This document shows positions 4,156 to 63,355 of a DNA stretch of 64,000 nt, piece by piece. The translations under genes and the position numbers were made by a program. The notes below the pieces were generated by a model that was given only the letters and a program-made list of their open reading frames with translations, was not told where the DNA came from and did not search any database. Each line of letters opens with the position of its first letter. Within the stretch, counting starts at the first letter, position 1. The DNA is from Pristiophorus japonicus (lineage: Eukaryota), in contig NW_027251843.1 in the NCBI RefSeq assembly GCF_044704955.1, positions 124,001-188,000 on the forward strand, given 5' to 3'.

Positions 4156-4355
4156 GTGTGCAATTGGTTGTAAAGCACTTTGGGATGTCCTGAGTTTGTG
4201 AAAGGTGCTATATAAATTCAAGGCTTTCTTTCATTGAAGTGGGAGGGCCCTGATCCTGACCCTCGCCCATTGTCCATGCACTCTGACCTTCCAGGAGGTC
4301 TCGGGATCATTTGGGAGTAGTGACCCTGCCTGGCCCCGGTACACTGAGGCTAATT

Positions 4356-5889
4356 TGTAGAATTTACCAATATCTCGCAAAGATTCCAGATACCTTTCCC
4401 CTACAGAGGAGAAGAATCCCGTTCTGGGCTTTTAAAATGAGTTTAAAGGGGCAGACGAAGCCTGCGGGGGATAAAAGGGGATTCATTCATGGAGACCCCC
4501 CCCCGCAGTGTTTGGACTCATAGGAAAGGGAATTCAAAATGCACCAAAATTACAGAAGCTTGAGATCCCCTAAACATCTATGGGAAGGAGCATATCGATT
4601 TTAAGATTCTACAACATTTTGGCTGCGAAAAAGAGTTACCAAATACAGGAGGTGGAGCCAACGTCTGAAGCAAATTCGTGTAATAAGGATCCCAGACTGT
4701 CTGGGGGAACTATTCACCCCCTAAGAGATAATCGAATTACCCAATCAAGTAAAATGGAAATCATGGTCAGAAAAACTGGACAATCCTAAAACAATGCAAA
4801 ACCAATGAGAGCACATTCTCACACCCTAATCAAGTTACTGCTGACAAAGGAGACATTTGAAAATCAATGGACAGAACAGCTTAAACAGAGCCCAAGAGAT
4901 TTGATGGGAGATAATGGAGCCTTTTTTTGGGATATATCTATACCCCAGTTTTACAAGGAAAGCTAGCAGAATACAGGACTAGCAGAACACAGACTCGAAC
5001 AGGACATAGACTCGAAAGGAACACAGACACGAACAGAACACAGACAGACACAAGCAGCCGGAGTGAAGAAATGGAGTCGTGAAGCAACCTACAAGAAATC
5101 ATCAAGGACCGACCGAGCACGAGGCCCATGAAATGGAAGGTTGTCAGCAACCAAATTGACAAACCCGGGCTACCACAACCAGCGAAACGACCAACCAAAA
5201 CCAACTCAGCAAAAACCGAAGAATCAACATTTATCTCCACTCTACAATCTACTTCTGAACAGCCAACGGGTGAGAAATTACCAAAAGGGACTAACTAAAA
5301 CCAAAGAAAGTGGGTACTTATCCCATACATCCGAAACGCAAATTACCGCATCAACGGACGCACCCCAACTGAAGACTACGCAGTCCGAAGTCCTCTCCTC
5401 CGTCCGGGGTATGGCTCGCCTAGAAGGCCAAGTGCAGCAAACCCCGAAACCGTGATTCACCGACAACTGTCTAAAGGGATTGGTGAGCATAGCCCCTGAA
5501 CCCTCAGAGCTATAACTTAGTTAGTTAGGGGAATTGGGAGGGGGGAGGCTGGGATAACTTGTGTAAATGTATCTGCATTCTCCTCTTTACCACATTTAGA
5601 GTTTAAGCTGTATTCTTTTCCCCACAGGCTGTAATTTGACATTTTATTCAATGTGTTGTACCCTTCAGTGTGTATTGATCTGTGTGTGTGTTATTAAAGG
5701 TGTGCCTTTTACTTCTTTTTAAACACAATAAAGCCATACCTGCTTCCTACCTTGAAACCGATTGTCTGTCCAAGTCTGTCACAGTCCCTTCATAATTCCA
5801 GTGTCTAGAACCAAGGGTGTAGGAGCGATTCAGAACCACTCATATAAGGTCAGAAGGGAAAGCTGACCCTCTGCAAACCACCCCTTACA
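4356..5889 (+). repeat. 5' LTR (1534 bp) of copy 1
   Basis: TG...CA termini. Direct repeat of 12407-13992, 56710-58255 and 61923-63355. AATAAA at 5727-5732. Confidence 0.95.
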
Positions 5890-5890
5890 C

Positions 5891-7723
5891 ATGGCAACCC
5901 AGATAGGACACTGGTACAAGGGACGTGATAAGAGAGAGACTGGTTTCAGGAAACAAAGCAAAATGGAAGAGGAGATTTCCTCATATGTGTTTAAGAGGGT
6001 AAATGTGGCTAAGGAGTGGGTAATCGATCTATTGTATGCTGAGCATCCAGAAGATGCTGCAGCTCAATGGACCGATAACAAGGACCATAAAAGGACGATA
6101 GAGAAGGCCATTTGGCTAATTTGCCTTCAGCAACAGACCCGGCTTCGAGATGAGGAGAATGAGAAATTAAAGGGAGTATTGAGACAGGCAGAAGAGAGGT
6201 CCAGCGCAAGGGCCACAGTCGGGGAAAGGTTGTGGACAGAGGTGGGACAGTTAAAGGAAAGTAGAGAGCTCACTAAAGAAAGGCACAAAACCCAACTGGA
6301 CCTTTTACGGTGTCAGATTATTGAAGCCAAGAATAGCAAACGGGCGTTGCGGGAAGAGAATTCCTGCCTCGCCAAGCAAGTTAAAGAGTATGGGGAGAGG
6401 GTGAGACACATTCAGGTAGCCTATAAGGTAGCCAGTACCAGGGAATTTGAGCCAGGAGACCACGGCCGCTGCCAGCAGCAGATCCAAAGCTTGAACCTTG
6501 CTCTATCCTGGGCTAAAGGCATGGTGTGCCTGATAAACCCGGGTTTAGCCCAGGAACACCTGGTTGGGCAAGGAGAAACCCCTCAGTCACCACCTGTAGC
6601 TCCCAGGAATGGCCCCGGGCAGCAGGGGTGTCAGCCAGAGTGCGGGGCAGGCAAGGATTACGAACTACTAACACCGGCAGCCCCGAGTTTTAATTCGGCT
6701 TGGCAGCAGGGGGAAGAGGGCAAGCCAATACAAGAAGGGCCGAAACCAGGGCCAATGGACCCGGTCCGGCAGCAGAAGTTTGGCCCGCCTGATGCCAATG
6801 GGGCAGCAGGACCCCTAGAATGCAACTTCGTAGTCCCCCACGACACCCAAAAACTGAGGGCTATGATAGGCCACCTAAGTAAGCTCACCCAACAGGGGGA
6901 TCCCTCGGTACACTTCCTGGAAGTGGAACACACAGGGGATATTAACGGGTGCGATGATTCGGAGCAGGCTAAGCTGTTGCTCTTCTCACTAGACACCAAG
7001 CTGTGCCATTCCCTCTCTGCAGACAGCAGAAAGGGGCGAAACACGTACGCTACAGTTAAGGAGGAGGTTCCAGAGGCCATGGGTATGAACGACGGGAGTC
7101 CTTTCTCCCGAGTGGAGAAAACAGTGCAGCTCTATGGGGAGACTCCACAGGCTTTCGCCGACAGGTTGTGGCCGGTCTACGAAAGGGCCTGTAGTGGGGT
7201 TCTTGACCGGGCCCACCTGAACCCTAACGAGCTGGCTCACTGGCTCCGCAGCCTGGTGGCAAACAGCTTACCTGGAGTAAAGGCAAAAGTCGAGGTCTGG
7301 TTCGATCCAAGAGATCCCAGAACCACCGAGGAGACAGTGGTCAGACAGTTGACCCTGGCTTACCGGAACGGTAGAGGGACAGAGGAGCCCTCCTCTAAAG
7401 GGAGGGTCCATGAGATTAAACCCAGCTAAGGCAAGAGAGAGTGGCATCAGGAAAGTGGGAACCCTCCCCATAAAGGAGGCGAGTGTGTTGGGTGTGGGAA
7501 AAGTGGGCACTGGAGGAAGAACTGTAGGAACCCATGGAAAGGGACTAAGGGAAAGGCCACTTCAGCCCCAGCCCGTAAGGCCGGGGCAGGAACACCCGAC
7601 TCATATGAGACACTCGTAGCCGCCCTACAGACACTCATAAACGGACAGGGAGCAGTAGCTATCGCAACTGGTGCAGTAGCCGGTACGGTAAAACCCTCTG
7701 CTCCAACCCACCCAGATGCATGA
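5891..7723 (+). pseudogene. gag: gag (coiled-coil N-terminus, capsid-like region, CCHC zinc knuckle, PSAP)
   Basis: 512-aa ORF ends at a premature TAA (7427-7429; CAA in copy 2). The same frame continues through C-V-G-C-GKSG-H-WRKN-C (7484-7525) and KPSAPT to TGA at 7721-7723. Confidence 0.9.
5892..5909 (+). promoter_or_regulatory. Primer-binding site, tRNA-Arg(CCG)-like
   Basis: TGGCAACCCAGATAGGAC lies 2 nt after the LTR. Copy 2 has TGGCGACCCAGATAGGAC (53847-53864), a 17/18 match to the complement of vertebrate tRNA-Arg(CCG) 3' end as I recall it (TGGCGACCCAGATGGGAC). Confidence 0.8.
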
Positions 7724-10700
7724 CTAGAGCCAGCTCAGCCTGTGTACCTGTGTTCCCGAGAGTATGATTCCTGGAAGAGACCTTGCGTTACGATGGAGGT
7801 GGAGAAAGTGAAAGGGACCTACCTGCTAGATACTGGTGCTTCCAGCACCCTTGTATATGCAGATAACCCAGCTACCTCACCTCTATCGAACGGGGTCCCG
7901 TACAGTCTAGTGGGGTTCACAGGCAATGAGCAAACTGGTTCGTTTTCCATCCTGCTCACCATTCAGTTAGGGACACTCAAAACCAAATGGAAGTGTGTCC
8001 TGATGGAATGGGAGCAGAAGGGAAAAGGGATCCTGGGGGCTGATTTTATCATTGCCCACCAGATCCTAGTGGATCTCAGGAACCACTGTCTATGGGGAGC
8101 CATAGTGACTGACAGGGAAGGTGAGGTGGCGGTGATCCCAGAAAAAGGGGCCAAGGGAACATTGTGTACCGTGAAGCCAAAGGACGGTTATGACTTGGAA
8201 TTACTGGTCAGTAACACCCCAGTGGAGTACCAGGCATATGTACGGGCACACCTTGCAGCATTCGCCACCCACAAACATGACTGTGGTAGGGTAACAGGGG
8301 CTGGAAGTTAGTATAGTAGGGGACCCCATGACCCGACCACAAAAGCAATATAACTTCCCCAGGGAGGCAGAGGCAGACCTGACAACGGCGCTGGGATCAC
8401 TGGTAGAGCAAGGGGTGTTAAGACCGATAGCCACCCGTGTGAACTCTCCACTGTGGCCGGTTAAGAAACCGAACAACTCATGGAGGGCCACCGTGGACTA
8501 TTGAATACTAAATAAGAATATCACTGCCTGTGCACCCACTGTAGCAGCCGTAGCGGATCTCATAGGGAGTATTCCAGCATCCGCGACCACTTTCACGGTG
8601 CTGGACATTTCAAATGGGTTCTGGTCCATTCCTTTAAAACCTTTAAGGGCCAACAATACACGTGGAACTGTCTTCCCCAAGGCTTCCACAACAGCCCCAG
8701 CATTTTTCACCAATGCATGGCGAACTGTTTAAAGGGCTTCAGCAGACCCCAGCAGTTGGTGCAGTATGTGGATGACCTGCTCCTGTTCACCGATCAGGGG
8801 GAGGAGCATGGCCCACTGCTGGCTGAGCTGCTGGAGCTGCTAAAAGAAGAAGGGTTTAAAGTAAACCCCAAGAAGGCACAGGTCGGCCAGAAGGAAGTCA
8901 AATTCCTGGGGCTGACTGTGCGTGCTGGGGAAAGGGCCATAGACAAGGCTAGAAGGGAGGCAGTACAGGAGTTACCAGCCCCCAACACAGTGACAGGGGT
9001 AAGATCCTTTCTAGGACTCACCGGGTACTACAGAGACTTCATTGAGGATTATGCAGCCACTGCAGCCCCTCTGCTCAGGCTCCTACACAAGGGTGTAGAG
9101 TGGGACTGGGATGAGGGTTGCGAGGCAGCATTTAATCAGCTCAAGAAGGACTTGCAGGTACGATAGATGTAGGAAAGGAGTTTTTCCTGGAGGTGGCAGC
9201 CAGCGGGGACAATTTGAGCTCAGTGCTGCTTCAAGAGCAGCACGGCCTTACTGGCCTTAGTGGTTTACTCCTCCAGTATCCCAACAGATGTGGAGAAGTG
9301 GTACTCCAACTGTGAGAGACATCTCCGAGCCACACATTGGGCAGTGAAAAGATCTTTCATCTTCACGGAAGGGTCTCCTCTAACACTCCTAACCCACCAC
9401 ACACCGACTCAGATGCTCCTAGATGGGAGGATTAAGGACAGGACGGTGAGCAGTGCCCGCATTGCTCGCTGGACCCTGCTCCTCTCCCAGATGGACCTCA
9501 GAGTAGAAGGCCCCCGTGATCAAGGCTCGCAGCCAACCTAATCTATCCTGGGAAAGCCCACAGGTGCTCCATAGAAGGGGTATGGGAGGTGAGCATTGGC
9601 CTTCAGGCTGGGTTACACCCTACAGGCCGGGACATCTACGTGGACGGGTCCAGCACGGTATCTGTTGGCGAATGACTCACTGGGTGCGGAGTCTATAACC
9701 CAAGGGCAGATATTGCCCTGGCAATCAAGCTGCCCAGCACCATGAGGGCCCAGCACGCTGAACTGTCCGCCGTAATGTACGTGGTGATCCACCCCGAGGA
9801 ATTCCCTACTCCGTACACGATTTGCTCGGACAGTATGTTCACCTGCAATTCATGTACGGAGTACCTGGCTCTCTGGTCCCGTCGCGGATACATGTCCGCT
9901 GATGGGAGACCCCTGGCAATCAAGCCCCTGCTGGAGAAAATCTTGGGGGAAGAAAGAAAGGTCTACATACATAAGGTGAAGGCCCATTCAAAAACTGAAC
10001 CCCTAGCAGAGGGAAACCAACAGGCTGACAAACTGGCCAAAGAAGGTGCCCGCACGGGAAAGTTCTGGGACCCCTATGACACCGGCCGCATAGCAGCGGT
10101 CAAGAATAAGAACAGGGCAGCGGTGAGTACAGGTATAGCTTTGGCCCCGGACTTAAAAACAGTTCAGGCACAGGACCCAGTCCTGAAAGCTGTCCTGAAT
10201 GCGCTAGCTAGAGGAGAGAGAGTAGAAGGTCCGTACGGCACAGCAGCCATTACCGTTAAGGAAGGCATGCTGTTTAAAGAGGGACAATGGGTCGTGCCAC
10301 AGCAGCACCAGAGGGAATTCCTAAAACTGGCCCATGAGGGTCCAGGAGCGGGACACCCCGGGCCTGAGACCACCTGGCAACGGGTGGAACAGGCAGGATG
10401 GTGGCCGGGACTCAAGGAGGATGTCCGCGAGTTCTGTGCGAACTGCCTGGTGTGTGCTACGAACAACCCTGACCCCCAGAAAAGGAAGGTGTCCCTAGGA
10501 CACGTCAGGAGGGTAGAGGGACCATGGCAGTCAATCCAAATTGACTACATCGGGCCCCTACTCACCGCCCAGGGAGGCTACTAATACTTCCGAGTCCTGA
10601 TGGACGTGTTCTCAAAATGGGTTGAAGCCTTCCCCTGCCGAACAGCCACCGCACGAGGGACAGCTAAGATTCTAGTGAGGGAAGTGTTCTCCCAGTGGGG

Positions 10701-11847
10701 ACTCCCACAGTATGTGGAGTCGGACCAGGGGAGCCATTTCACCGGGCAGGTAATGCAGGCAACCCTTAAGGTGCTCGGCATTGAGGGGAAATGGCACGTT
10801 GCCCACAATCCACAGTCATCCGGTATTGTGGAGCATTTAAACTGCACCATTAAAGAAAAGCTGCGGAAGGAAACGAGAGACTCACCCCAAAAGTGGGTGG
10901 AGGTCTTACCGTTGGTCCTAATGGGGATCCGAGCCCAGCCAGTCAAAGAGCATCGGATATTCCCCATACGAGCTCATGACTGGCCGGATCATGCGGAACC
11001 CCACCCATATCCGAACCCCGGTGCTCACAGAAGGTCAGCTCAGAGAGGTGAACCGGGACCGGTTTGTCAGGAACCTGTTTGAACACCTCAAACAGATTCA
11101 CTGGCAGGCTGCTAGTAACATGGGCAGACAGCATCAGGGGAACCAATTGCTGCTAGAACCTAGCAAACACCACGAATGGGAGATAGGGGACCAGGTCATG
11201 GTGAGGAACTATGCTCAGGTCAGTGTTTTTGAAGCATTATATATGGGGCCATACAGCATTGTGGACAAGGCAAGCCCGATGGTCTGTGCCATAAAGCTGC
11301 CCCACCGTACTAAGTGGTTCCACATCAACCAGTGCAAGCTGTACAACCCAGGGTCAGCCAAGCACAGAGGGCAGCCGGGAGGGGTGAACCGTCCTCAGGA
11401 CAGGGACCCTCCGTTGGCCGCCCCCGACGGTGGAGGGCCACAGGGAATGTGGCAGGCTCAGAAACCGTGCCTATAGTGGCGGTGAATTGCAGTACTGGAG
11501 GGGCTATCCCACCCATCGTTTGGGATTCGGACGCACCCCCAGTAACCCAAGCCCTGAGAAGGACCCTCCGTACACCACGGCCAAAGATACTGTGGTCACT
11601 GGCATCTGAGCCTCAGCGATTCTACCCTAGGAGAAGGGCAGCCCGACAGGAAAGGCCGAAGGTCAGAAGTACAGAGGCCGCTCAGAGTAGGGACCACCAG
11701 CCAGCCGCCTCCAGCGGTGAGGGTCTCACAGGAGCAGTAGCAATGAGCTGTCCCAGAGACAAGGGTCTTCAGCTCACCAGCTGCGGGGAAACCCTAGCAT
11801 CCAGGCGGCTATCAGGCCGCACAAGGCATGGGCCTGACAGGGACTAA
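7724..11847 (+). pseudogene. pol: pro-pol: protease, RT, degenerate RNase H tether, RNase H, integrase with long C-terminal tail
   Basis: Motifs LLDTGAS; LDISNGFWSIPL; LPQGFHNSP; YVDD; IYVDGS...AQHAEL...SDS...KVKAHS...GNQQAD; HHCC; IDYIGP, SDQGSHF, SSGIVE; GPY. Several stops, frameshifts and small deletions. Confidence 0.92.
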
Positions 11848-12398
11848 CCAGGCCACCCGGAGACGGGTGGAGGTTGTACATAGCTCTAATTTTAGTTTAA
11901 GGCAGCTGACTGCACCATTTTACATTTTAAGGTTTCGTTTAGAATTGAGGTTAATGTTGCAGTAATGTTGAGGTGATTATTTTGAGTTTGTCTTGTGTGT
12001 CAGCCAGCCTGAGAGCAGTTCTCAAGGGCAGGATCCAGACATTACCGGGTAATGGACAAACCTCAGGAGACCAATTGATGTTGTTTAATTTTAATCTATG
12101 TTTTTTTCCCTTCTGTAATGTGGTTGTACGTTGCCTATATGCTGGTGAATATAATGTAACTGAAATGAAATGTAACTGTGCTGAAATACAATTGTAGTGA
12201 TTGAACCCCCTCCAAGCTGGGAGGGTATAAATGTAAAAAGTTTGTACCTGTAAAGGGAAAAGTGTGCATCTATGGTGATGTTACATAAGTGTAATGCATT
12301 TTGGGTATTAGTTTAGCTAATTTACGGAGAAGGTTATCTCTTGGGAGTCAGGAACTTTGCTCACCTCGAAGATGATACCATAAGTGATATGGTATCAC

Positions 12399-12406
12399 AG
12401 GGGGAA
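12399..12406 (+). promoter_or_regulatory. Polypurine tract
   Basis: AGGGGGAA immediately before the 3' LTR; same arrangement at 61914-61922. Confidence 0.8.
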
Positions 12407-13992
12407 TGTAGAATTTACCAATATCTCGCAAAGATTCCAGGTACCTTTCCCCTACAGAGGAGAAGAATCCCTTTCTGGGCTTTTAAAATGAGTTTAAAGG
12501 GGCAGACGAAGCCTGCGGGGGTTAAAAGGGGATGCATTCATGGAGACCCCCCCCCAGTGTTTGGACTCGTAGGAAAGGGAATTCAAAATGGACCTAAATT
12601 ACAGAAGCTTGAGATACCCTAAACATCTATGGGAAGGAGCATATCGATTTTAAGATTCTACAATATTTTGGCTGCGAAAAAGAGTTACCAAATACAGGAG
12701 GTGGGGCCAACGTCTGAAGCAAATTCATGTATTAAGGACCCCAGGCTATTCACCCTCTAAGAGATAATCGAATTACCCAATCAAGCACAATGGAAATCAT
12801 GGTCAGAAAAACTGGACAATCCTAAAACAATGCAAAACCAGTGATAGCACATTCTCACACCCTAATCGAGTTACTGCTGACAAAGGAGATATTTGAAAAT
12901 CAATGGACAGAACAGTTTAAACAGAGCCCAAGAGATTTGATGGGAGATAACGGAGCCTTTTTTTGGGATATATCTATCCCCCAGTTTTACAAGGAAAGCT
13001 AGCAGAACACAGAAGTAGCAGAACACAGGACTAGCAGAACACAGACTCGAAAGGAACACAGACTCGAAATGAACACAGACTCGAACAGGACACAGACTCG
13101 AACAGGACACAGACTCGAACAGGACACAGACTCGAAATGAACACAGACAGACACAAGCAGCCGGAGTGAAGAAATGGAGTCGTGAAGCAACCTACAAGAA
13201 ATCGTCAAGGACCGACCGAGCACGAGGCCCATGAAATGGAAGGTTGTCAGCAACCAAATTGACAAACCCGGGCCACCACAACCAGCAAAACGACCAACCA
13301 AAACCAACTCGGCAAAAACCGAAGAATCAACATTTATCTCCACTCTACAATCTACTTCTGAACAGCCAACGGGTGAGAAATTACCTAAAAGGACTAACTA
13401 AAACCAAAGAAAGTGGCTACTTATCCCATACATCCGAAACGCAAATTACCGCATCAACGGACGCACCCCAACTGAAGACTACGCAGTCCGAAGTCCTCTC
13501 CTCCGTCCGGGGTACAGCTCACCTAGGAGGCCAAGTGCAGCAAACCCCGAAACCACGATTCACCGGCAACTGTCTAAAGGGATTGGTGAGCATGGCCCCT
13601 GAACCCTCAGAGCTATAACTTAGTTAGTTAGGGGAATTGGGAGGGGGGAGGCTGGGATAACTTGTGTAAATGTATCTGCATTCTCCTCTTTACCCCATTT
13701 AGAGTTTAAGCGGTATTCTTTTCCCCACAGGCTGTAATTTGACATTTTATTCAATGTGTTGTACCCTTCAGTGTGTATTGATCTGTGTGTGTGTTATTAA
13801 AGGTGTGCCTTTTACTTCTTTTTAAACACAATAAAGCCATACCTGCTTCCTACCTTGAAACCGATTGTCTGTCCAAGTCTGTCACAGTCCCTTCATAATT
13901 CCAGTGTCTAGAACCAAGGGTGTGGGAGCGATTCGGGACCACTCATATAAGGTCAGAAGGGAAAGCTGACCCTTTGCAAATCACCCCTTACA
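12407..13992 (+). repeat. 3' LTR (1586 bp) of copy 1
   Basis: Direct repeat of 4356-5889 with an expanded internal ACACAGACTCGAA-type short repeat region. Confidence 0.95.
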
Positions 13993-14345
13993 AATTGTAG
14001 CCTCACCCTTGACCTCACCCCGGTGCTGGGCAGCAAGCTTTTAAATGCAATCTAGAAGCTTCTACACCGACACCCAACATGAAGCCTTGCTGAAGTATGT
14101 TGATATAAGTGTGCCGCAATGTTCCCTGATAAAGTTCTCCCGATCTGTGTGTGATCTGAGCTTTCTCACTGCTGAGCCTGTTTCCCCTGTATCCACCCAT
14201 CTACAGTTCGAGCTTCCTGCCAGTGAACAGCGTCTTAACGGGACACTCAGTCTTTACGAACTCTTACTGTTAACCATTTCAGTGCTGAATGTGCGGCAAC
14301 CCTGCACTGCAGATGTTTATACAACAGTCCAATATGATTTTCAGT

Positions 14346-16433: not shown

Positions 16434-16589
16434 NNNNNNNNNNNNNNNNNNNNNNNNNNNNNNNNNNNNNNNNNNNNNNNNNNNNNNNNNNNNNNNNNNN
16501 NNNNNNNNNNNNNNNNNNNNNNNNNNNNNNNNNNNNNNNNNNNNNNNNNNNNNNNNNNNNNNNNNNNNNNNNNNNNNNNNNNNNNNNNN
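16434..16589. other. Assembly gap (156 N)
   Basis: Run of N. Confidence 1.
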
Positions 16590-22382: not shown

Positions 22383-23091
22383 TGTCGAAATCTCGACCTC
22401 CGAAAAGAATGACTCCGACACTTACAGCTCCGGCAGAAGTTTCTTTAATTTACTTGCTAGCAAGGGGCAGGTCACACTCAGTCAAGGGCTAAATGAACAC
22501 CTCCGAAATGGTACAGTTTCACAAGATATTTATACAGTAAAACCCAAGTTATGGCCTCTCCCTGTGTATTGGCTCTGTCTCGTAGTCAGTGAATACAGAT
22601 AAAGAGTTAATTACTACATCCTTGTCCTGACATGGTTTCCAGATATTTCCTTTTGTCAGGGTTATTCGTTGGCCAGCCGGCCATTACTCCATGAGAGTGA
22701 GGTAATGAGCTATTACCTGTCTTGCATTGTGTCAGGATTGTTCAGTTTCCTAGTCAGTTTATCTGTTTGCATCAAATGGATGTGGTCTCTACAAGAGATA
22801 ATGGCTGGTGGTTTGAGTCTGGAAGAAAAGGGTGGGGTGACATGGAACTCTTGTCGTGTAGACAATAGAGCACCATGGGCGGGGTGGGGGGGGGGTACTT
22901 GTCTCAGCATGACTTGTCTCCTAGCTGTCTGATGGCCATCAGCCATCTCAAACCAGGTTTAGCTGCTTATGCAAGCTGACTGCTTTCATGCAGAAAGTTC
23001 TGGAAGGACCAGGACTCCATTTTGTTATATATATTGCAAAGGACACACAAATACCATATGGTATCAGCTTAGATAAAAATACATTTCCACA
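22383..23091 (-). repeat. ERV 3' LTR (709 bp)
   Basis: About 98% similar by eye to 28772-29476. PPT AGGACAAAATGGGGGAA on the minus strand at 23092-23108. Confidence 0.93.
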
Positions 23092-23121
23092 TTCCCCCAT
23101 TTTGTCCTTCACAAGGACAAC

Positions 23122-28771: not shown

Positions 28772-29476
28772 TGTCGAAATCTCGACCTCCGAAAAGAATG
28801 ACTCCGACACTTACAGCTCCGGCAGAAGTTTCTTTAATTTACTTGCAAGCAAGGGGCAGGTCACACTCAGTCAAGAGCTAAGTGAACACCTCCGAAATGG
28901 TACAGTTTCACAAGATATTTATACAGTAAAACCCAAGTTATGGCCTCTCCCTGTGTATTGGCTCTGTCTCGTAGTCAGTGAATACAGATAAAGAGTTAAT
29001 TACTACATCCTTGTCCTGACATGGTTTCCAGATATTTCCTTTTGTCAGGGTTATTCGTTGGCCAGCCGGCCATTACTCCATGAGAGTGAGGTAATGAGCT
29101 ATTACCTGTCTTGCATTGTGTCAGGATTGTTCAGTTTCCTAGTCAGTTTATCTGTTTGCATCAAATGGATGAGGTCTCTACAAGAGATAATGGCTGGTGG
29201 TTTGAGTCTAGAAGAAAAGGGTGGGGTGACATGGAACTCTTGTCGTGTAGACAATAGGAGAGCACCATGGGGGGGCGGTACTTGTCTCAGCATGACTTGT
29301 CTCCTAGCTGTCTGATGGCCATCAGCCATCTCAAACCAGGTTTAGCTGTTTATGCAAGCTGATTGCTTTCATGCAGAAAGTTCTGGAAGGACCAGGACTC
29401 CATTTTGTTATATATATATTGCAAAGGGCACACAAATACCGAATGGTATCAGCTTAGATAAAAATACAATTCCACA
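28772..29476 (-). repeat. ERV 5' LTR (705 bp)
   Basis: TG...CA termini; direct repeat of 22383-23091. Confidence 0.93.
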
Positions 29477-30020
29477 TTGTTCACCCTCCTCCCTCAGAAT
29501 GTACTGCAGCCACTCAGTGACATCCTTGACCCTGGCACCAGGGAGGCAACATACCATCCTGGAGTCATGTCTGCGGCCGCAGAAATGCCTGTCTGTTCCC
29601 CAACTATCGAATCCCCTACCACTATTGCTCTTCCACTCTCCTTCCTCCCCCCTGTGCAGATGAGCCACCCGTGGTGCCGTGGACTTGGCTCTGGCTGCAC
29701 TTCCTAGAGGCACCATCGCCCCCACCAGTACTCAGAACACAATACTGGTTGGAGAGTGAGATGGACTCAGGGGACTCCTGCACTACCTGCCTGGATCTCC
29801 TCTTCTGTCTGGTGGTCACCCATTCCCTCTCTGCCTGCACACTCTTAAGCTGCGGGTGGCCACCTCTAGAAACGTGCTATCCACGAAGTTCTCAGCCTCG
29901 CAGATACACCGCAGTGACTCCAGCCACCGCTCAATCTCCGACACGCGGAGCTCGAGTTGCTGTAGCTGGTGACACTTCCTGCACATGTGGTCATCCAGGC
30001 CACGAGAAGCATCCAGGACA
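29477..30020 (-). mobile_element. CR1 LINE 5' arm (ORF1, SGNH esterase-like region)
   Basis: AIVVGDSIV and VCCLPGARVKDV motifs, contiguous with 22382 once the ERV is removed. Confidence 0.85.
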
Positions 30021-34527: not shown

Positions 34528-34546
34528 TGTTAAACTCATCATTAAG

Positions 34547-46510: not shown

Positions 46511-46734
46511 CTTTAATATATTTTGTGTTTCTAGGGGGGGACGAAATTCGGTCCCGCACTTTTGGGGACGGTACCAGCCGCGAGGTGGGAATTCCTACGC
46601 CAGGCGTGGCAGTCCCGCCCCGCAAGCTATATTGGGCTTACCGCCACCAAGTGGACTTATTGAAGGCCGCGACTGATAAATGGGTCATTGTTTGGGCTGC
46701 CACAGCTCCCCTTTAATTCCCATCCCTGGGTTGC

Positions 46735-53580: not shown

Positions 53581-56500
53581 CAGGCTGTAATTTGACATTT
53601 TATTCAATGTGTTGTACCCCTCAGTGTGTATTGGTCTGTATGTGTTATTAAAGGTGTGCCTTTTACTTCTTTTTAAACACAATAAAGCCATACCTGCTTC
53701 CGACGTTGAAACCAATTGTCTGTCCAAGTCTGTCACAGTCCCTTCATAATTCCAGTGTCTAGAACCAAGGGTGTGGGAGCGATTCGGAACCGCTCATATA
53801 AGGTCAGAAGGGAAAGCTGACCCCCTGCAAACCACCCCTTACATAATGGCGACCCAGATAGGACACTGGTACAAGGGACGTGATAAGAGAGAGACTGGAT
53901 TCAGGAAAAGAAGCAAAATGGAAGAGGGGATTTCCTCGTATGTGTTTAAGAAGGTAAATGTGGCTAAGGAGTGGGTACTCGATCTATTGTATGCTGAGCG
54001 TCCAGAAGATGCTGCAGCTCAATGCACCAAGAGCAAGGACCATAAAAAGTCAATAGAGAAGGCCATTTGCCTAATTTGCCTTCAGCAACAGATCCGGCTT
54101 CTAGATGAGGAGAATGAGAATTAAAGGGAGTATTGAGACAGGCAGAAGAGAGGTCCAGCGCAAGGGCCACAGTCGGGGAAAGGCTGTGGACAGAGGTGGG
54201 AAAGTTAAAGGAAAGTAGAGAGCTCACTAAAGAAAGGCACAAAACCCAATTGGACCTTTTACAGTGTCAGATTATTGAAGCCAAGAATAGCGAACGGGCG
54301 TTGCGGGAAGAGAATTCCTGCCTCGCCAAGCAAGTTAAAGAGTACGGGCAGAGGGTGAGAGACATTCAGGTAGCCTATAAGGTAGCCAGTGCCAGGGAAT
54401 TTGAGGCAGGAGACCACGGCCTCTGCCAGCAGCAGATCCAAAGCTTGAACCTTGCTCTATCCCGGGCTAAAGGCATGGTGTGCATGATAAACCCAGGTTT
54501 GGCCCAGGAACACCTGGTTGGGCAAGGAGAAACCCCTCAGTCACCGCCTGTAGCTCCCAGGAATGGCCCGGGGCAGCAGGGGTGTCAGCCAGAGTGCGGG
54601 GCAGGCAAGGATTGCAAACGACCAACACCAGCAACCCCGAGTTTTAACTCGGCTTGGCAGCAGGGGGAAGAGGGCAAGCCAATAAAAGAAGGGCCAAAAC
54701 CAGGGCCAATGCATCCGGTCCGGCAGCAGAAGTTTGGCCCGCCTGATGCCAATGGGACAGCAGGACCCCTAGAAAGCAACTTCGTAGTCCCCCACGACAC
54801 CCAAAAACTGAGGGCTATGATAGACCACCTAAGTAAGCTCACCCAACAGGGGGATCCCTCGGTACACTTCCTGGAAGTGGAACACACAGGGGATATTAAC
54901 GGTGTGATGATTTAGAGCAGGCTAAGTTGTTGCTCTTCTCGCTAGACACCAAGCTGTGAAACACGTACGCTACGGTTAAGGAGGAGGTTCTAGAGGCCAT
55001 GGGTATGAACGACGGGAGTCCTTTCTCCCGAGTGGAGAAAACAGTGCAGCTCTGTGGGGAGACTCCACAGGCTTTCGCCGACAGGTTGTGGCCGTCTACG
55101 AAAGGGCCTGTAGTGGGGTTCTTGACCGGGCCCACCTGACCCCTAACGAGCTGGCTCACTGGCTCCGCAGCCTGGTGGCAAACAGCTTACCTGGAGTAAA
55201 GGCAAAAGCCCAGGTCTGGTTCGATCCAAGAGATCCCAGAACCACCGAGGAGACAGTGGTCAGACAGTTGACACTGGCTTACCGGAACGGTAGAGGAACA
55301 GAGGAGCCCTCCTCTAAAGGGAGGGTCCATGAGATTAAACCCAGCCAAGGCAAGAGAGAGTGGCATCAGGAAGGTGGGAACCCTCCCCACAAAGGGGGTG
55401 AGTGTTTTGGGTGTGGGAAAAGTGGGCACTGGAGGAAGGACTGTAGGAACCCATGGAAAGAGACTAAGGGAAAGGCCACTTCAGCCCCAGCCCGTAAGGC
55501 CGGGGCAGGAACACCCGATGCATATGAGACACTCGTAGCCACCCTACAAACACTCAAACAGACAGGGAGCAGTAGCTATCGCAACTGGTGCAGTAGCCGG
55601 TACGGTAAAACCCTCTGCTCCAACCCACCCAGATGCATGACTAGAGCCAGCGCAGCCTGTGTACCTTTGTTCCCGAGAGTACGATGCCTGGAAGAGACCG
55701 TGCGTTACGATGGAGGTGGAGAAAGTGAAAGGGACCTACCTGCTAGATACTGGTGCTTCCAGCACCCTTGTATATGCAGATAACCCAGCTACCTCACCTC
55801 TATTGAACGGGGTCCCGGACAGTCTAGTGAGGTTCACAGGCAATGAGCAAACTGGTTCGTTTCCCATCCCGCTCACCATTCAGTTAGGGACACTCAAAAC
55901 CAAATGGAAATGTGTCCTGATGGAATGGGAGCAGAAGGGAAAAGGGATCCTGGGGGCTGATTTTATCATTAGCCACCAGATCCTAGTGGATCTCAGGAAC
56001 CACTGTCTATGGGGAGCCATAGTGACTGACAGGGAAGGTGAGGTGGCGGTGATCCCAGAAAAAGGGGCCAAGGGAACGTTGAGTACTGAAGCCAAAGGAG
56101 GGTTATGACTTGGAATTACTGGTCAGTAACACCCCAGTGGAGTACCAGGCTTATGTACGGGCACACCTTGCAGCATTCGCCACCCACAAACATGACTGTG
56201 GTAGGGTAACGGGGCTGGAAGTTAGTATAGTAGGGGACCCCATGACCCGACCACAAAAGCAATATAACCTCCCCAGGGAGGCAGAGGCAGACCTGACAAC
56301 GGCGCTGGGATCACTGGTAGAGCAAGGGGTGTTAAGACCGATAGCAACCCATGTGAACTCTCCACTGTGGCTGGTTAAGAAACCGAACAACTCATGGAGG
56401 GCCACCGTGGACTATCGAGTACTAAATAAGAATATCCCTGCCTGTGCACCCACTGTAGCAGCCGTAGCGGATCTCATCGGGAGCATTCCAGCATCTGCGA

Positions 56501-59500
56501 CCACTTTCAAGGTGCTGGATATTTCAAATGGGTTCTGGTCCATTCCTTTAAAACGGGAGGACCAGTACAAGTTCGCCTTTACCTTTATGGGCCAACAATA
56601 CACGTGGAACTGTCTTCCCCAAGGCTTCCACAACAGTCCCAGCTTTTTTCACCAATGCATGGCGAACTGTTTAAAGGGCTTTAGCAGACCCCAGCAGTTG
56701 GTGCAGTATTGTAGAATTTACCAATATCTCGCAAAGATTCCAGGTACCTTTCCCCTACAGAGGAGAAGAATCCCTTTCTGGGCTTTTAAAATGAGTTTAA
56801 AGGGGCAGACGAAGCCTGCGGGGTTAAAAGGCGATGCATTCATGGAGACCCCACCCCCCCGCCCAGCAGTGTTTGGACTCATAAGAAAGGGAATTCAAAA
56901 TGGACCTAAATTACAGAAGCTTGAGATCCCCTAAACATCTATGGGAAGGAGCATATCAATTTTAAGATTCTACAACATTTTGGCTGCGAAAAAAGAGTTA
57001 CCAAATACAGGAGGTGGAGCCAACGTCTGAAGCAAATTCGTGTATTAAGGATCCCAGACTGTCTGGGGGAACTATTCACCCCCTAAGAAATAATCGAATT
57101 ACCCAATCAAGCACAATGGAAATCATGGTCAAGAAACTGGACAATCCTAAAACAATGCAAAACCAGTGATAGCACATTCTCACACCCTAATCGAGCTACT
57201 GCTGACAAAGGAGACATTTGAAAATCAATGGACAGACAGTTTAAACACAGCCCAAGAGATTTGATGGGAGATAACAGAGCCTTTTATTGGGATATATCTA
57301 TCTCCCAGTTTTACAAGGAAAAACTAGCAGAACTCAAAAACTAGCAGAACACAGAAACTAGCAGAACACAGAAACTAGCAGCACACAGGAGAGAAGCAGA
57401 AAAACTAGGAGAACACAGGAGAGAAGCAGAGCACAGGCTGGAACTCGCACAGACTGGAACACAGACACAGACAAGCAGCCTGCTTGCTCTACAGTGAAGA
57501 AATGGAATAGTGAAGGAAACTACCAGAACTGATCAGGAACTGACCGAGCACGAGGCCCACGAAACGGAAGGTTGTCAGCAACCAAATTGACAACCACTCT
57601 ACAATCTACTTCTGAACAAACCAACGGGGGAGAAATTACCAAAAGGGACTAACTAAAACTATTCCTAACCAAAGAAAGTGGGTATTTACCCCATACATCC
57701 AAAACGCAACTTACCGCATCAACGGACGCACCCCACTCGAAGACTACGCAGTCCGAAGTCCTCTCCTCCGTCCGGGGTACGGCTCGCCGAGAAGGCCAAG
57801 TGCAGTGAACCCCGAAACCGCGATTCACTGGCAACTGTCTAAAGGGATTGGTGAGCATAGCCCCTGAACCCTCAGAGCTATAACTTAGTTAGTTAGGGGA
57901 ATTGGGAGGGGGGAGGCTGGGATAACTTGTGTAAATGTATCTGCATTCTCCTCTTTACCCCATTTAGAGTTTAAGCTGTATTCTTTTCCCCACAGGCTGT
58001 AATTTGACATTTTATTCAATGTGTTGTACCCCTCAGTGTGTATTGGTCTGTGTGTGTTATTAAAGGTGTGCCTTTTACTTCTTTTTAAACACAATAAAGC
58101 CATACCTGCTTCCGACGTTGAAACCGATTGTCTGTCCAAGTCTGTCACAGTCCCTTCATAATTCCAGTGTCTAGAGCCAAGGGTGTGGGAGCGATTTGAA
58201 ACCGCTCATATAAGGTCAGAAGGGAAAGCTGACCCCCTGCAAACCACCCCTTACAATGTGTGGATGATCTGCTCCTGTTCACCGATCATGGGGAGGAGCA
58301 TGGCCCACTGCTGGCTGAGCTGCTGGAGCTGCTAAAAGAAGAAGGGTTTGAAGTAAACCCCAAGAAGGCACAGATCGGCCAGAAGGAAGTCAAATTCCTG
58401 GGGCTGACTGTGCGCACTGGGGAAAGGGCCATCGACAAGGCTAGAAGGGAGGCAGTACAGGAGTTACCAGCCCCCAACACAGTGACAGGGGTAAGATCCT
58501 TTCTTTAGCTTACCAGGTACTGCAGAGACTTCATTGAGGATTATGCAGCCACCGCAGCCCCTCTGCTCAGGCTCCTACACAAGGGTGTAGAGTGGGACTG
58601 GGATGAGGGTTGCGAGGCAGCATTTAATCAGCTCAAGAAGGACTTGCAGACCGCGCCAGCCTTAGGAGCGATAGATGTAGGAAAGGAGTTTTTCCTGGAG
58701 GTGGCAGCCAGCGGGGACAGTTTGAGCTCAGTGCTGCTTCAAGAGCGGCACGGCCAGCTGAGACCGGTGGTTTACTCCTCCAGGATCCTCACAGATGTGG
58801 AGAAGGGGTACTCCAACTATGCAAGACATCTCCTAGCCACACATTGGGCAGTTAAAAGATTCTTGATCTTCACGGGAGGGTCTCCTCTAACACTCCTAAC
58901 CCACCACACACCTACTCAGATGCTCCTAGATGGGAGGATTAAGGACGGGACGGTGAGCAGTGCCCGCATTGCTCACTGGACGCTGCTCCTCTCCCAGATG
59001 GAAAACAGAGTAGAAGGCCCCCGCGAGCCAAGGCTCGCAGCCAACCTAATCTACCCAGGGAAAGCCCACAGATGCTCCATAGAAGGGGTATGGGAGGTGA
59101 GCATTGGCTTTCGGGCTGGGTTACACCCTGCAGGCCGCGACATCTATGTGGAAGGGTCCAGAACGGTATCTGCTGACGAGCGACTCACTGGGTGCGGAGT
59201 CTACGACCCAAGGGCAGATATTGCCCTGGCAATCAAGCTCCCCAGCACCATGAGTGCCCAGCATGCTGAACTGTCCGCCATAATGTACGTGGTAACCCAC
59301 CCCGAGGAATTCCCCACCCGTACACGATTTGCTCGGACAGTATGTTCACCCGCAATTCATGTACGGAGTACTTGGCTCTCTGGTCCCGTCGCGGATACAC
59401 GTCCGCTGACGGGAGATCCCTGGCAATCAAGCCCCTGCTGGAGAAAATCATGACAGTGGTGGGGGAAGAAGGAAAGATCTACATACATAAGGTGAAGGCC

Positions 59501-62500
59501 CATTCAAAAACCGAACCCCGTGCAGAGGGAAACCAACAGGCTGACAAACTGGCCAAATAAGGTGCCCGCACGGGAAAGTTCTGGGACCCCTATGACACCG
59601 GCCGCATAGCAGCGGTCAAGAATAAGAACAGGGCAGCAGAGAGTACAGGGATAGCTTTGGCCCCGGACTTAAAAACAGTTCAGGCACAGGACGCGGTCTG
59701 AAAGCTGTCCTGAATGCGCTAGCTAGAGGAGAGAGAGTAGAAGGTCCGTACGGCACAGCAGCCATTACCGTTAAGGAAGGCATGCTGTTTAAAGAGGGAC
59801 AATGGGTCGTGCCACAGCAGCACCAGAGGGAATTCCTAAAACTGGCCCATGAGGGTCCAGGAGCGGGACACCCCGGGCCTGAGACCACCTGGCAACGGGT
59901 GGAACAGGCAGGATGGTGGCCGGGACTCAGGGAGGACGTCCACGAGTTCTGTGCGAACTGCCTGGTGTGTGCTGCGAACAACCCTGACCCCCAGAAAAAG
60001 AAGGTGTCCCTAGGACACGTCAGGAGGGTAGAGGGACCATGGCAGTCAATCCAAATTGACTACATCTGCCCCTACCCAGTGCCCAGGGAGGCTACAAATA
60101 CTGCCTAGTCCTGGTGGACGTGTTCTCAAAATGGGTTGTAGCCTTCCCCTGCCGAACAGCCACCGAACTCGGGACAGTTAAGATTCTAGTGAGGGAAGTG
60201 TTCTCCCGGTGGGGACTCCCACAGTATGTGGAGTCGGATCAGGGGAGCCATTTCTCCGGGCAGGTAATGCAGGCAACCCTTAAGGTGCTCGGCATTGAGG
60301 GGAAATGGCACGTTGCCCACAATCCACAGTCATCGGGTATTGTGGAGCTTTTAAACCGCACCATTAAAGAAAGACTGCGGAAGGAAACGGGAGACTCACA
60401 CCAAAAGTGGGTGGAGGTCTTACCGTTGGTCCTAATGGGGATCCGAGCCCAGCCAGTCAAAGAGCACCGGATATTCCCCATACGAGCTCATGACTGGCCG
60501 GATCATGCAGACCCCCACCCATGTCCTAGCCCCGGTGCTCACAGAAGGTCAGCTCAGAGAGGTGGACCAGGACCAGTTTGTCAGGAACCTGTTTGAACAC
60601 ATCAAATAGATTCACTGGCAGGCTGCTAGTAACATGGGCAGACAGCATCAGGGGAACCGATTGTTGCGAGAACCCAGCAAACACCACGAATGGGAGATAG
60701 GGGATCAGCTCATGGTGAGGAACTATGCTCGGGTCGGGGTTTTTAAAGCATTATATATGGGGCCATACAGCATTGTGGACAAGGCAAGCCCGATCGTCTA
60801 TGCCATAAAGCTGCCCCGCCGTACTAAGTGGTTCCACATCAACCAGTGCAAGCTGTACAACCCAGGGTCAGCCAACCACAGAGGACAGCCGGGAGGGGTG
60901 AACCGTCCTCAGGACAGGGACCCTCCGTTGGCCGCCCCCGACGGTGGAGGGCCCACAGGGAATGTGGCAGGCTCAGAAACCATGCCTATAGGGGCGGTGA
61001 ATTGAAGTACTGGAGGGGCTATCCCACCCATCGTTTGGGATTCGGACGCACCCCCAGTAACCCAAGACCTGAGAAGGACCCTCCGTACACCACGGCCAAA
61101 GATACCGTGGTCACCGGCATCTGAGCCTCAGCGATTCTACCCTCGAAGTAGGGCAGCCCGACAGGAAAGGCCGAAGGTCAGAAGTACAGAGGCCGCTCAG
61201 AGTAGGGACCACCAGCCAGCCGCCTCCAGCGGTGAGGGTCTCACAGGAGCAGTAGCAATGAGCTGTCCCAGAGACAAGGGTCTCCAGCTCACCGGCTGCG
61301 GGGAAACCCTAGCACCCAGGCGGCTATCAGGCCGCACAAGGCATGGGCCTGACAGGGACTAACCAGGCCACCTGGAGACGGGTGGTGGTTGTACATAGCT
61401 CTAATTTTAGTTTAAGGCAGCTGACTGCGCCATTTTACATTTTAAGGTTTAGTTTAGAATTGAGGGTAATGTTGCAGTAATGTTTAGGTGATTATTTTGA
61501 GTTTATCTTGTGTGTCAGCCAGCCTGAGAGCAGTTCTCAAGGGCAGGATCCAGACATTACCGGGTAATGGACAAACCTCAGGAGACCAATTGATGTTATT
61601 TAATTTTAATCTAGGTTTTTTTCCCTTCTGTAATGTGGTTGTACGTTGCCTATATGCTGGTGAATATAATGTAACTGAAATGAAATGTAACTGTGCTGAA
61701 ATACAATTGTAGTCATTGAACCCCTCCAAGCTGGGAGGGTATAAATGTAAAAAGTTTGTACCTGTAAAGGGAAAAGTGTTCATCTATGGTGATGTTGCAT
61801 AAATGTAATGCATTTTGGATATTAGTTTAGCTAATTTACGGGGAAGGTTATCTCTTAGGAGTCAGGAAATTTGCTCACCTCGAAGAATGATACCATAAGT
61901 GATATGGTATCACAGGGGGGAATGTAGAATTTACCAATATCTCGCAAAGATTCCAGGTACCTTTCCCCTACAGAGGAGAAGAATCCCTTTCTGGGCTTTT
62001 ATAATGAGTTTAAAGGGGCAGACGAAGCCTGCGGGGGATAAAAGGGGATTCATTCATGGAGACCCCCCCCCCTCCAGTGTTTGGACTCATAGGAAAGGGA
62101 ATTCAAAATGGACCTAAATTACAGAAGCTTGAGATCCCCTAAACATCTATGGGAAGGAGCATATCAATTTTAAGATTCTACAACATTTTGGCTGCGAAAA
62201 AGAGTTACCAAATACAGGAGGTGGGGCCAACGTCTGAAACAAATTCGTGTATTAAGGATCCCAGGCAATTCACCCCCTAAAAGATAATCGAATTACCCAA
62301 TCAAGCACAATGGAAATCATGGTCAGAAAAACTGGACAATCCTAAAACAATGCAAAACCAGTGATAGCACATTCTCACACCCTAATCGAGTTACTGCTGA
62401 CAAAGGAGACATTTGAAAATCAATGGACAGAACAGTTTAAACAGAGCCCAAGAGATTTGATGGGAGATAACGGAGCTTTTTTTTGGGATATATCTATCCC

Positions 62501-63355
62501 CCAGTTTTACAAGGAAAGACTAGCAGAACACAGAAGCTAGCAGAACACAGACTCGAACAAGGAACAGACTGGAACACAGACACAGACACAAGCAGCTGGA
62601 GCTGGGGAGTGAAGAAATGGAGTAGTGAAGGAAACTTCAAGAAATCATCAAGGACCGACCAACCAAAACCTACTCAGCAAAAACCGAAGAATCGACATTT
62701 ATTTCCACTCTACAATCTACTTCTGAACAGCCAACGGGTGAGAAATTACCTAAAAGGACTAACTAAAACCAAAGAAAGTGGGTACTTACCCCATACATCC
62801 GAAACGCAACTTACCGCATTAACGGACGCACCCCAACTGAAGACTACGCAGTCCGAAGTCCTCACCTCCGTCCGGGGTGTGGCTTGCCCAGAAGGCCAAG
62901 TGCAGAGAACCCCGAAACCGTGATTCACCGGCAACTGTCTGAAGGGATTGGTGAGCATCGCCCATGAACCCTCAGAGCTATAGCTTAGTTAGTTAGGGGA
63001 ATTGGGAGGGGAGAGGCTGGGATAACTTGTGTAAATATAGCTGCATTCTCCTTTTTACCCCATTTAGAGTTTAAGCTGTATTCTTTTCCCCACAGGCTGT
63101 AATTTGACATTTTATTCAATGTGTTGTACCCCTCAGTGTGTATTGGTCTGTGTGTGTTATTAAAGGGTTGCCTTTTACTTCTTTTTAAACACAATAAAGC
63201 CATACCTGCTTCCTACCTTGAAACCAATTGTCTGTCCAAGTCTGTCACAGTCCCTTCATAATTCCAGTGTCTAGAACCAAGGGTGTGGGAGCGATTCGGA
63301 ACCACTCATATAAGGTCAGAAGGGAAAGCTGACCCCCTGAAAACCACCCCTTACA
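53581..63355 (+). mobile_element. Env-less dual-RNase H retrovirus-like element, copy 2 (5' LTR truncated, solo LTR nested in RT)
   Basis: Partial LTR 53581-53843, PBS 53847-53864, gag to TGA 55638-55640, pol to ~61362 and 3' LTR 61923-63355. Collinear with copy 1. Confidence 0.95.
56710..58255 (+). mobile_element. Solo LTR of the same family inserted into RT of copy 2
   Basis: TGTAG...TTACA, 1546 bp. Splits CAG TAT | GTG GAT GAT with 4 extra bases (ATGT vs left GTAT). Confidence 0.93.

What the first reader, a model, noticed from the sequence alone, without database searches (positions are those of the whole stretch)
7694..7760. Gag-Pol joined by an in-frame UGA-CUAG: candidate stop-codon readthrough
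Seen: gag (frame of 5891) ends GAT GCA TGA CTA GAG at 7721-7723, and the protease ORF (7742 onward) is in the same frame. The identical TGACTAG is kept in copy 2 (55638-55644). Established: UGA-CUAG is a strong readthrough context in vertebrate genes (AQP4, LDHB, MDH1, OPRK1) and UGA-C in alphaviruses. Gamma- and epsilon-retroviruses read through UAG instead, and spumaviruses splice pol. Inference: this family makes Pol by UGA readthrough, an unusual strategy for a retrovirus-like element.
Basis: partly seen in the sequence, partly recalled or inferred. Interest (0 to 1): 0.75.

Follow-up and report, generated by a model that had tools for sequence, protein, structure and literature searches.

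The report
Leaky UGA-CUAG in snakehead-like endogenous retrovirus
A decayed vertebrate endogenous retrovirus has its coat gene and enzyme gene in one reading frame, split by a UGA stop followed by CUAG, so its replicating ancestor likely made its enzymes by occasionally reading through that stop, a known retroviral trick with a signal so far described for alphaviruses and host genes.

Summary
Observation confirmed with a correction. TGA-CTAG at 7721-7727 lies between gag and protease in one frame and recurs in copy 2, but both copies are dead: copy 1's gag also stops at 7427, and copy 2's gag has five indels. The element is an env-less ERV nearest to snakehead retrovirus (SnRV), not a lokiretrovirus. 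The stop is not a CpG accident. No alternative letter at 7721-7726 was listed among 1051+367 contigs from one deep sample (40 of 58 rows visible). An ~80%-identical sister family becomes alignable at the stop. Two Gag homologues (47%, 42% identical) end at the same place. The protease fold starts upstream of the first AUG, and no stable 3' structure was found. In-frame readthrough is already assumed for SnRV and Ovex1 (UAG), and UGA junctions are listed for SSSV, ZFERV and RMEV. UGA-CUA at a retroviral gag-pol junction was not found in my searches. Side result: 7 of 24 published lokiretrovirus consensus sequences carry TGA-CTA there, and that paper never mentions it. The scan had noted UGA-CUAG gag-pol junctions before in non-vertebrate copia/DIRS elements. 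Readthrough is inferred, not measured.

The parts
4356..5889 (+). 5' LTR of copy 1 (TG...CA, about 1.5 kb), preceded by a 4-bp target-site duplication
   Evidence: Self-BLAST; ends and matching AATT flanks; 53 mismatches in 1519 aligned sites against the 3' LTR (3.5%)
5892..5909 (+). Putative primer-binding site (TGG...), overlapping the first in-frame ATG at 5891
   Evidence: Sequence; the tRNA was not identified by any search
5891..7723 (+). gag, 610 codons: N-terminal coiled-coil-like part, capsid-like part, one CCHC knuckle (7484-7525), 65-aa tail; broken by a premature stop at 7427-7429
   Evidence: homologues P0023 (47%) and P0024 (42%)
7721..7727 (+). gag stop UGA followed by CUAG (type II readthrough context)
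   Evidence: variation among copies
7724..8311 (+). pro ORF in the gag frame; protease domain about 7757-8050; first AUG at 7793 lies inside the domain
   Evidence: Pfam RVP match from ORF residue 17; residues 16-45 align ungapped to HIV-1 protease 5-34
8312..11476 (+). Rest of pol, fragmented by stops and frameshifts: RT (YVDD), RNase H, integrase H2C2, rve core and SH3-like tail with a GPY motif
12399..12406 (+). Polypurine tract; no env ORF between pol and the 3' LTR
   Evidence: Three-frame translation of 11300-12420
12407..13992 (+). 3' LTR of copy 1
53581..63355 (+). Copy 2 of the family: truncated 5' LTR, different flanks, 3.8% divergent over 2836 aligned gag-pro-RT sites; tether (degenerate RNase H) domain at about 58599-58997
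55638..55644 (+). Same UGA-CUAG junction in copy 2
56710..58255 (+). LTR of the same family inserted into copy 2's RT at the YVDD codons

Best explanation
The TGA at 7721 is the natural end of gag in an env-less endogenous retrovirus whose nearest named relative is snakehead retrovirus, and its replicating ancestor likely made Gag-Pro-Pol by low-level ribosomal readthrough of that UGA, likely driven by the following CUA(G) without a downstream RNA structure. Shown: one frame across the junction, the motif in both window copies, near-fixation among sequenced copies, the same Gag end point in distant homologues, and a protease fold that begins before the first AUG. Inferred: most ribosomes stop and release a Gag of about 610 aa; a small share (1.3-1.5% is the published floor for the bare motif in mammalian cells) insert an amino acid and go on, which sets the Gag to Gag-Pol ratio. 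The two window copies are fossils and cannot do this now.
For: Same frame, with stops in the +1 frame and no slippery heptamer within -150/+100 nt. laid 1051 (X1) and 367 (X4; same sample) contigs plus 12 and 10 from two other samples: none of the 40 visible variant rows (of 58) falls at 7721-7726, and the visible rows go down to about 8% share. The 7th base does vary (7727 G>A: 4% of X1 depth, 22% of X4), as expected if UGA-CUA is the core (PMC4132726 abstract: first six of seven nucleotides universally conserved; UGA-CUA alone gives 1.5%). Contigs of an ~80%-identical sister family start to align at 7715-7721, with a different but open, proline-rich Gag tail in the same register upstream (tables 7-8). 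Gag homologues P0023 and P0024 end 68 and 64 aa after the knuckle, against 65 here. No fused Gag-Pol was found among 7988 longer candidates (weak). The first AUG matches HIV-1 protease residue 13. 15 of the 24 variant positions visible at 7791-7870 are third codon positions in this frame. Relatives are assumed to use in-frame suppression: SnRV (PMC1224870), Ovex1 (PMC2717909); the Ovex1 orthologue L001 shows gag-TAG-GGC-pro.
Against: No translation or RNA evidence. No stimulatory structure: z = +2.25, +2.07 and +0.31 for copy 1, +1.50 and +0.08 for copy 2, against -2.76 for L001's UAG junction; pseudoknots and long-range pairing were not tested. 18 variant rows were hidden, among them one T>C, one C>T and one G>A place at 3% or more in X1, so a minor sense-codon class below about 8% is not excluded. 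The DNA of P0023 and P0024 was not available, so their stop codon and context are unknown. The deep data come from one sample. In Tca2 an in-frame UGA junction did not direct readthrough in a reporter (PMC2194720 abstract).
Confidence: 0.8

Rival explanations
1. The stop is a CpG-decayed sense codon (CGA to TGA) shared by descent: a defective founder was amplified in trans by a helper with a fused gag-pol.
For: CpG decay is active: of 89 CpG sites scored between the two copies, 28 have decayed in one copy. One published lokiretrovirus consensus (Pfl) has CGA-CTA at the homologous junction. One hidden T>C row.
Against: At that rate two independent copies would both show TGA about 0.6% of the time. 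A neighbouring CpG shows C>T in only 5.5% of X1 depth, whereas no alternative letter above about 8% was listed at the stop. Gag homologues at 42-47% identity end at the same place. Decay does not explain the rare CTA context.
Confidence: 0.06
2. The stop is real but Pol comes from a spliced message, as in foamy viruses, with the AG in or next to TGACTAG as the acceptor.
For: The 40 nt upstream are pyrimidine-rich and the motif contains YAG. The SnRV lineage sits between epsilon- and spuma-like viruses (PMC1224870 passage).
Against: Neither AG is fixed: 7727 G>A and 7728 A>G occur in subfamilies. Splicing would not need gag and pol to share a frame. No joint at the junction was listed in the laid contigs (DNA or unknown run type, so weak).
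Confidence: 0.07
3. Pol is started afresh downstream of the stop (reinitiation, or an internal promoter as seen in the Tca2 junction).
For: An AUG lies 24 codons after the stop, and P0001 is predicted from a Met at the same place. Tca2 has a minor junction promoter (PMC2194720 abstract).
Against: That AUG corresponds to HIV-1 protease residue 13, so the product would lack the N-terminal strand needed for the dimer (established knowledge of retropepsins). A free Pol would also lose Gag-mediated packaging (established knowledge).
Confidence: 0.05
4. UGA is recoded specially (selenocysteine insertion or A-to-I editing to a Trp codon).
For: None beyond the codon identity.
Against: No Rfam family, SECIS included, reached its threshold in 4300-14100. 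The CUA context points to ordinary near-cognate decoding.
Confidence: 0.02

Closest known systems
Snakehead retrovirus (SnRV) and the SnRV-like ERV clade
   Same: Closest named RT: 69 of 139 residues (50%) over three blocks, counted by hand between copy 2's RT piece and the rows in the PMC7947760 supplement. One zinc knuckle; gag and pro-pol in one frame split by a single stop (PMC1224870); env-less SnRV-like elements are reported from frogs (PMC4131045 passage).
   Different: SnRV's junction is UAG-GGC (PMC13517186 section 4.1.2), here UGA-CUA-G. No env or accessory ORFs here.
SSSV, ZFERV and RMEV (aquatic retroviruses with a UGA gag stop)
   Same: UGA at the gag-pro junction in one frame (PMC13517186 section 4.1.2).
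   Different: Their contexts are UGAAGA, UGACGA and UGAAGU. They are described there as distantly related to epsilonretroviruses, and readthrough is stated there as not verified in epsilonretroviruses.
Ovex1 (avian; locus L001)
   Same: gag-stop-pro in one frame, stop 37 codons before the protease motif; related to SnRV (PMC2717909).
   Different: UAG-GGC with a stable 3' fold (z -2.76); no knuckle; catalytically altered RT.
Type II UGA-CUA(G) readthrough: alphaviruses (SINV, CHIKV), PSIV and vertebrate genes AQP4, OPRK1, OPRL1, MAPK10
   Same: Identical 6-7 nt signal; can act without a structure (PMC4132726 abstract; PMC13517186 section 2.5).
   Different: Not listed for a retroviral gag-pol junction in those sources.
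Lokiretroviruses (Wang and Han, PMC7947760)
   Same: Dual RNase H, coiled-coil region before the capsid, and TGA-CTA at the gag-pol junction in 7 of 24 published consensus sequences.
   Different: RT motifs differ (47 of 139, 34%, against Loki-Oja); no F-like env here.
Tca2 of Candida albicans (copia)
   Same: gag-UGA-pol in one frame.
   Different: Different superfamily; its junction did not direct readthrough in yeast reporters (PMC2194720 abstract).

Membership tests
SnRV-like ERVs | RT groups with SnRV in a phylogeny | tested here: inconclusive
   SnRV could not be put in the tree. By hand count SnRV is nearest (50%) against FFV 38%, WDSV 37%, Loki-Oja 34%. The tree places the RT with P0001 (100/99) in an unresolved group with amphibian and coelacanth 'NYNRIN-like' Pols and Ovex1-like L001, apart from gypsy-like rows (100/100). 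The copy-1 RT piece was cut in the wrong frame and dropped out.
SnRV-like ERVs | gag and pro-pol in one frame separated by a stop | tested here: met
SnRV-like ERVs | Single CCHC knuckle in Gag; GPY/F-like motif may be present | tested here: met
   Knuckle at 7484-7525; GPY in the integrase tail; features from PMC1224870 and PMC4299795 passages
Retroviridae and allies | Dual RNase H (tether plus RNase H) and order PR-RT-RH-IN between LTRs | tested here: met
   Pfam RT_RNaseH and RNase_H both hit (also P0001)
Retroviridae and allies | env gene | tested here: not met
   No long ORF between pol and the 3' LTR in copy 1; secondary loss is inferred
Lokiretroviruses | Loki-type RT motifs and clade | tested here: not met
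   The 8 Loki rows seen have a different motif before the catalytic site; the motif found here has 0 hits in that supplement (file cut when stored)
Lokiretroviruses | Paramyxovirus F-like env | tested here: not met
   No env ORF
ERV4 (crocodilian/turtle) | No zinc finger, no GPY/F motif, 5-bp TSD | tested here: not met
   Knuckle and GPY present, TSD 4 bp (features from PMC4299795 Table 1)
Type II (UGA-CUA) readthrough sites | UGA followed by CUA, conserved, with an open downstream frame | tested here: met
Type II (UGA-CUA) readthrough sites | Measured readthrough that depends on CUA | not testable with these tools
   Needs a reporter or ribosome profiling
Gammaretroviral type III readthrough | UAG plus purine-rich spacer plus 3' pseudoknot | tested here: not met
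   UGA, and no stable fold in 100-150 nt; pseudoknots not modelled

The most novel reading that the evidence does not exclude
Structure-free UGA-CUA readthrough is a widespread, overlooked Gag-Pol signal of deep-branching retroviruses. It sits at the same junction in this SnRV-like family and in a clade of lokiretroviruses (7 of 24 consensus sequences, plus one TGN-CTA and one CGA-CTA), toggling with a sense codon as the alphavirus opal does. In-frame suppression with this host-type signal could then be as old as the Loki/Retroviridae split, older than the UAG-pseudoknot of gammaretroviruses.
Probability: 0.3. Interest if true: 0.72.

Novelty: new variant of a known kind. Interest (0 to 1): 0.47.

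Why it matters
The August 2026 review of animal-virus readthrough (PMC13517186) lists UAG or UGA-AGA/CGA/AGU at retroviral gag-pro junctions and gives alphaviruses and PSIV as the UGACUA examples. This family, and lokiretroviruses in published data, add the UGA-CUA(G) signal to retroviral Gag-Pol control, apparently without a downstream structure. That bears on what the early retroviral Pol-expression strategy was. It also has a practical side: annotation splits such elements into a gag and a Met-started 'NYNRIN-like' pol that lacks the protease N-terminus (P0002, P0003, P0005, P0007 begin 1 residue before the catalytic motif). The claim is cheap to test with a short reporter cassette.

Tried and rejected
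No host genome was held, so copies were surveyed through Logan contigs. One search (71-nt window, 1% threshold) listed no variant at 7721-7727, but it also missed the 7727 change seen. It is blind near its edges and is not counted as evidence for fixation. No RNA holder was listed. Contig depth was not used as a copy number. My first reading, lokiretrovirus, was rejected on RT motifs. L001 first looked like an SnRV proxy but is an Ovex1 orthologue. Viral contigs held no relative. Of 80 metagenome loci, 33 had a protease motif followed by a long open frame, and only L001 showed a long open frame before a single in-frame stop; the others are weak, distant matches. ESM Atlas gave only sub-0.9 Gag-like leads. 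No Rfam hit, no tRNA gene, no slippery heptamer. The Odin paper had 0 hits for readthrough terms in its text and 0 for the motif or gene labels in 10 supplements. Searches for CGACTA and TGACTAH in the Loki supplement (only 30 of 68 and 30 of 83 places seen) added no junction beyond Dcl; one search found nothing. The RT alignment of PMC10435555 did not contain this family's motifs (trimmed alignment). The scan index had no look-alike by sequence or place.
Full report
Observation. The window reads GAT GCA TGA CTA GAG with TGA at 7721-7723. This is in frame with the ATG at 5891 and with a 195-codon ORF (7724-8311) that holds a retropepsin. Copy 2 has the same seven bases at 55638-55644. TGA is followed by CTAG in only 3 of 1075 cases in the window. 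Both copies are fossils.

Anatomy. Copy 1 runs from 4356 to 13992. It has 1.5-kb LTRs (3.5% divergent), a 4-bp target-site duplication, a PBS-like TGG site and a polypurine tract. Pfam finds protease, RT, tether, RNase H, integrase zinc finger, rve and SH3-like domains across 14 ORF pieces of the two copies; 3 gag pieces had no hit. Gag has one CCHC knuckle. No env ORF lies before the 3' LTR. Copy 2 has other flanks and is 3.8% divergent.

Identity. I first suspected a lokiretrovirus. The RT rows in the supplement of PMC7947760 (main text parts 1-2 of 4 read; supplement searched and part 68 of 71 read, file cut when stored) argue against it. Counted by hand over three blocks of 139 residues, copy 2's RT matches SnRV at 69, feline foamy virus at 53, WDSV at 51 and Loki-Oja at 47. 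The best database Pols are P0001 (80% in RT) and amphibian and coelacanth 'NYNRIN-like' proteins. Gag relatives include a catshark and a Xenopus protein. The tree separates this group from gypsy-like rows but leaves its inner order open, and SnRV could not be included. A knuckle, a GPY motif and a 4-bp TSD exclude ERV4 as defined in PMC4299795 (passages and Table 1). I call it SnRV-like on best match, not on a resolved tree.

Is the stop original? Ten runs were listed, none on record as RNA. In one search, 1051 contigs of X1, 367 of X4 (same sample), 12 of X2 and 10 of X3 were laid on 7560-7900. None of the 40 visible variant rows (of 58) lies at 7721-7726. The lowest visible rows are near 8%. 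Three X1 places at 3% or more are hidden (one T>C, one C>T, one G>A), so a small sense-codon class cannot be excluded. The seventh base varies (7727 G>A, 4% and 22%). One search is blind at these positions and is not used for fixation. It does show that a neighbouring CpG has decayed in only 5.5% of X1 depth, and that 7728 varies. Between the two window copies, 28 of 89 scored CpGs have decayed in one copy, which gives about 0.6% for two independent CGA-to-TGA events. Contigs about 80% identical begin to align at 7715-7721, with a different proline-rich tail in the same register upstream. A search for fused longer forms found none among 7988 candidates, which is weak evidence.

Mechanism. No frameshift is needed and no slippery site is present. 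ORF residues 16-45 align without gaps to HIV-1 protease 5-34 (weak E-values, 3.5e-4 at best), and Pfam RVP starts at residue 17. The first AUG (residue 24) therefore falls inside the fold, which counts against reinitiation. Both AG dinucleotides at the junction vary among subfamilies, which counts against a splice acceptor. The downstream RNA folds no better than shuffles (z +0.08 to +2.25 in five folds), unlike the UAG junction of L001 (-2.76 and -1.49). UGA-CUA alone supports 1.5% readthrough (PMC4132726, abstract), and structure is only conditionally needed for this class (PMC13517186, section 2.5). I commit to structure-free type II readthrough in the ancestor at 0.8. The caution is Tca2, whose UGA junction failed in a reporter (PMC2194720, abstract).

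What is known. In-frame suppression is assumed for SnRV (PMC1224870, passages) and Ovex1 (PMC2717909, passages). L001 is an Ovex1 orthologue with TAG-GGC. UGA junctions are listed for SSSV (UGAAGA), ZFERV (UGACGA) and RMEV (UGAAGU) (PMC13517186, section 4.1.2). So neither the strategy nor the UGA is new. I found no report of UGA-CUA at a retroviral gag-pol junction in ten searches (listings, of which 20 of 55, 20 of 37 and 15 of 27 were shown) or in term searches of PMC9040795, PMC12440569, bioRxiv 2023.10.26.564294, PMC12193657, PMC4131045, PMC10435555 and PMC5210030 (passages only). The library lacks most subscription papers and Repbase notes, and bioRxiv supplements were closed. Earlier notes of this scan describe UGA-CUAG gag-pol junctions in copia, DIRS and other elements of fungi, diatoms and a dinoflagellate; I did not check them.

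Side result. In the lokiretrovirus supplement, 7 of 24 consensus sequences have TGA-CTA at the gag end, in frame with the protease-proximal region (Bsp has a one-base slip further on). One has TGN-CTA and one has CGA-CTA in a fused ORF; 15 were not inspected or lack gag. The paper's text has no hit for readthrough, stop codon or frameshift, and no library paper holds both 'lokiretrovirus' and 'readthrough'. The motif is short and has arisen repeatedly, so convergence is at least as likely as shared ancestry.

Verdict. A real, selected gag terminator in a leaky context, in a dead env-less SnRV-like ERV: a new variant of a known kind. Interest 0.47; most novel reading at probability 0.3, interest 0.72.

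Noticed in passing
PMC7947760 supplementary data set S1: Of 24 lokiretrovirus consensus sequences, 7 have TGA-CTA at the gag-pol junction (Ofa, Cne, Pyo, Sau followed by G; Dcl, Lro, Bsp followed by A), Tfu has TGN-CTA and Pfl has CGA-CTA in a fused ORF. Nine more are labelled fused gag-pol (junction not inspected) and six were not assessed. The paper's text has 0 hits for readthrough, stop codon or frameshift.
   Followed up: partly
L001:974-982: An avian Ovex1 orthologue in a metagenome keeps gag-TAG-GGC-pro in frame with a stable downstream fold (z -2.76) although its RT active site is altered, which suggests the junction is still maintained in a domesticated gene.
   Followed up: partly
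window 56710-58255: An LTR of the same family sits inside copy 2's RT exactly at the YVDD codons; the target-site duplication is not clean.
   Followed up: partly
window 5891-5909: The first in-frame gag ATG overlaps the putative primer-binding site 2 nt after the LTR, and homologue P0024 is predicted to start at the same place. The leader is very short and the LTR long (about 1.5 kb); the conserved Met about 25 codons later may be the real start.
   Followed up: no
P0002, P0003, P0005, P0006, P0007 (amphibian genomes): Related Pols annotated as 'NYNRIN-like', ribonuclease H or integrase-like all start at a Met one residue before the protease catalytic motif, so the annotated start probably cuts off the protease N-terminus; their upstream DNA could hold the same kind of junction.
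   Followed up: no
window about 40300-43400, 36325-37885, 46720-48220, 32220-32730, 33840-34530: Several tandem arrays (24-nt, 83-nt, about 70-nt, 66-nt and about 45-nt units); the 24-nt array yields long spurious-looking ORFs on both strands.
   Followed up: no
window 16434-16589: A run of 156 N (assembly gap).
   Followed up: no
window 22383-23093 and 28772-29478: A 96%-identical 710-bp direct repeat pair 6.4 kb apart, possibly the LTRs of another young element.
   Followed up: no
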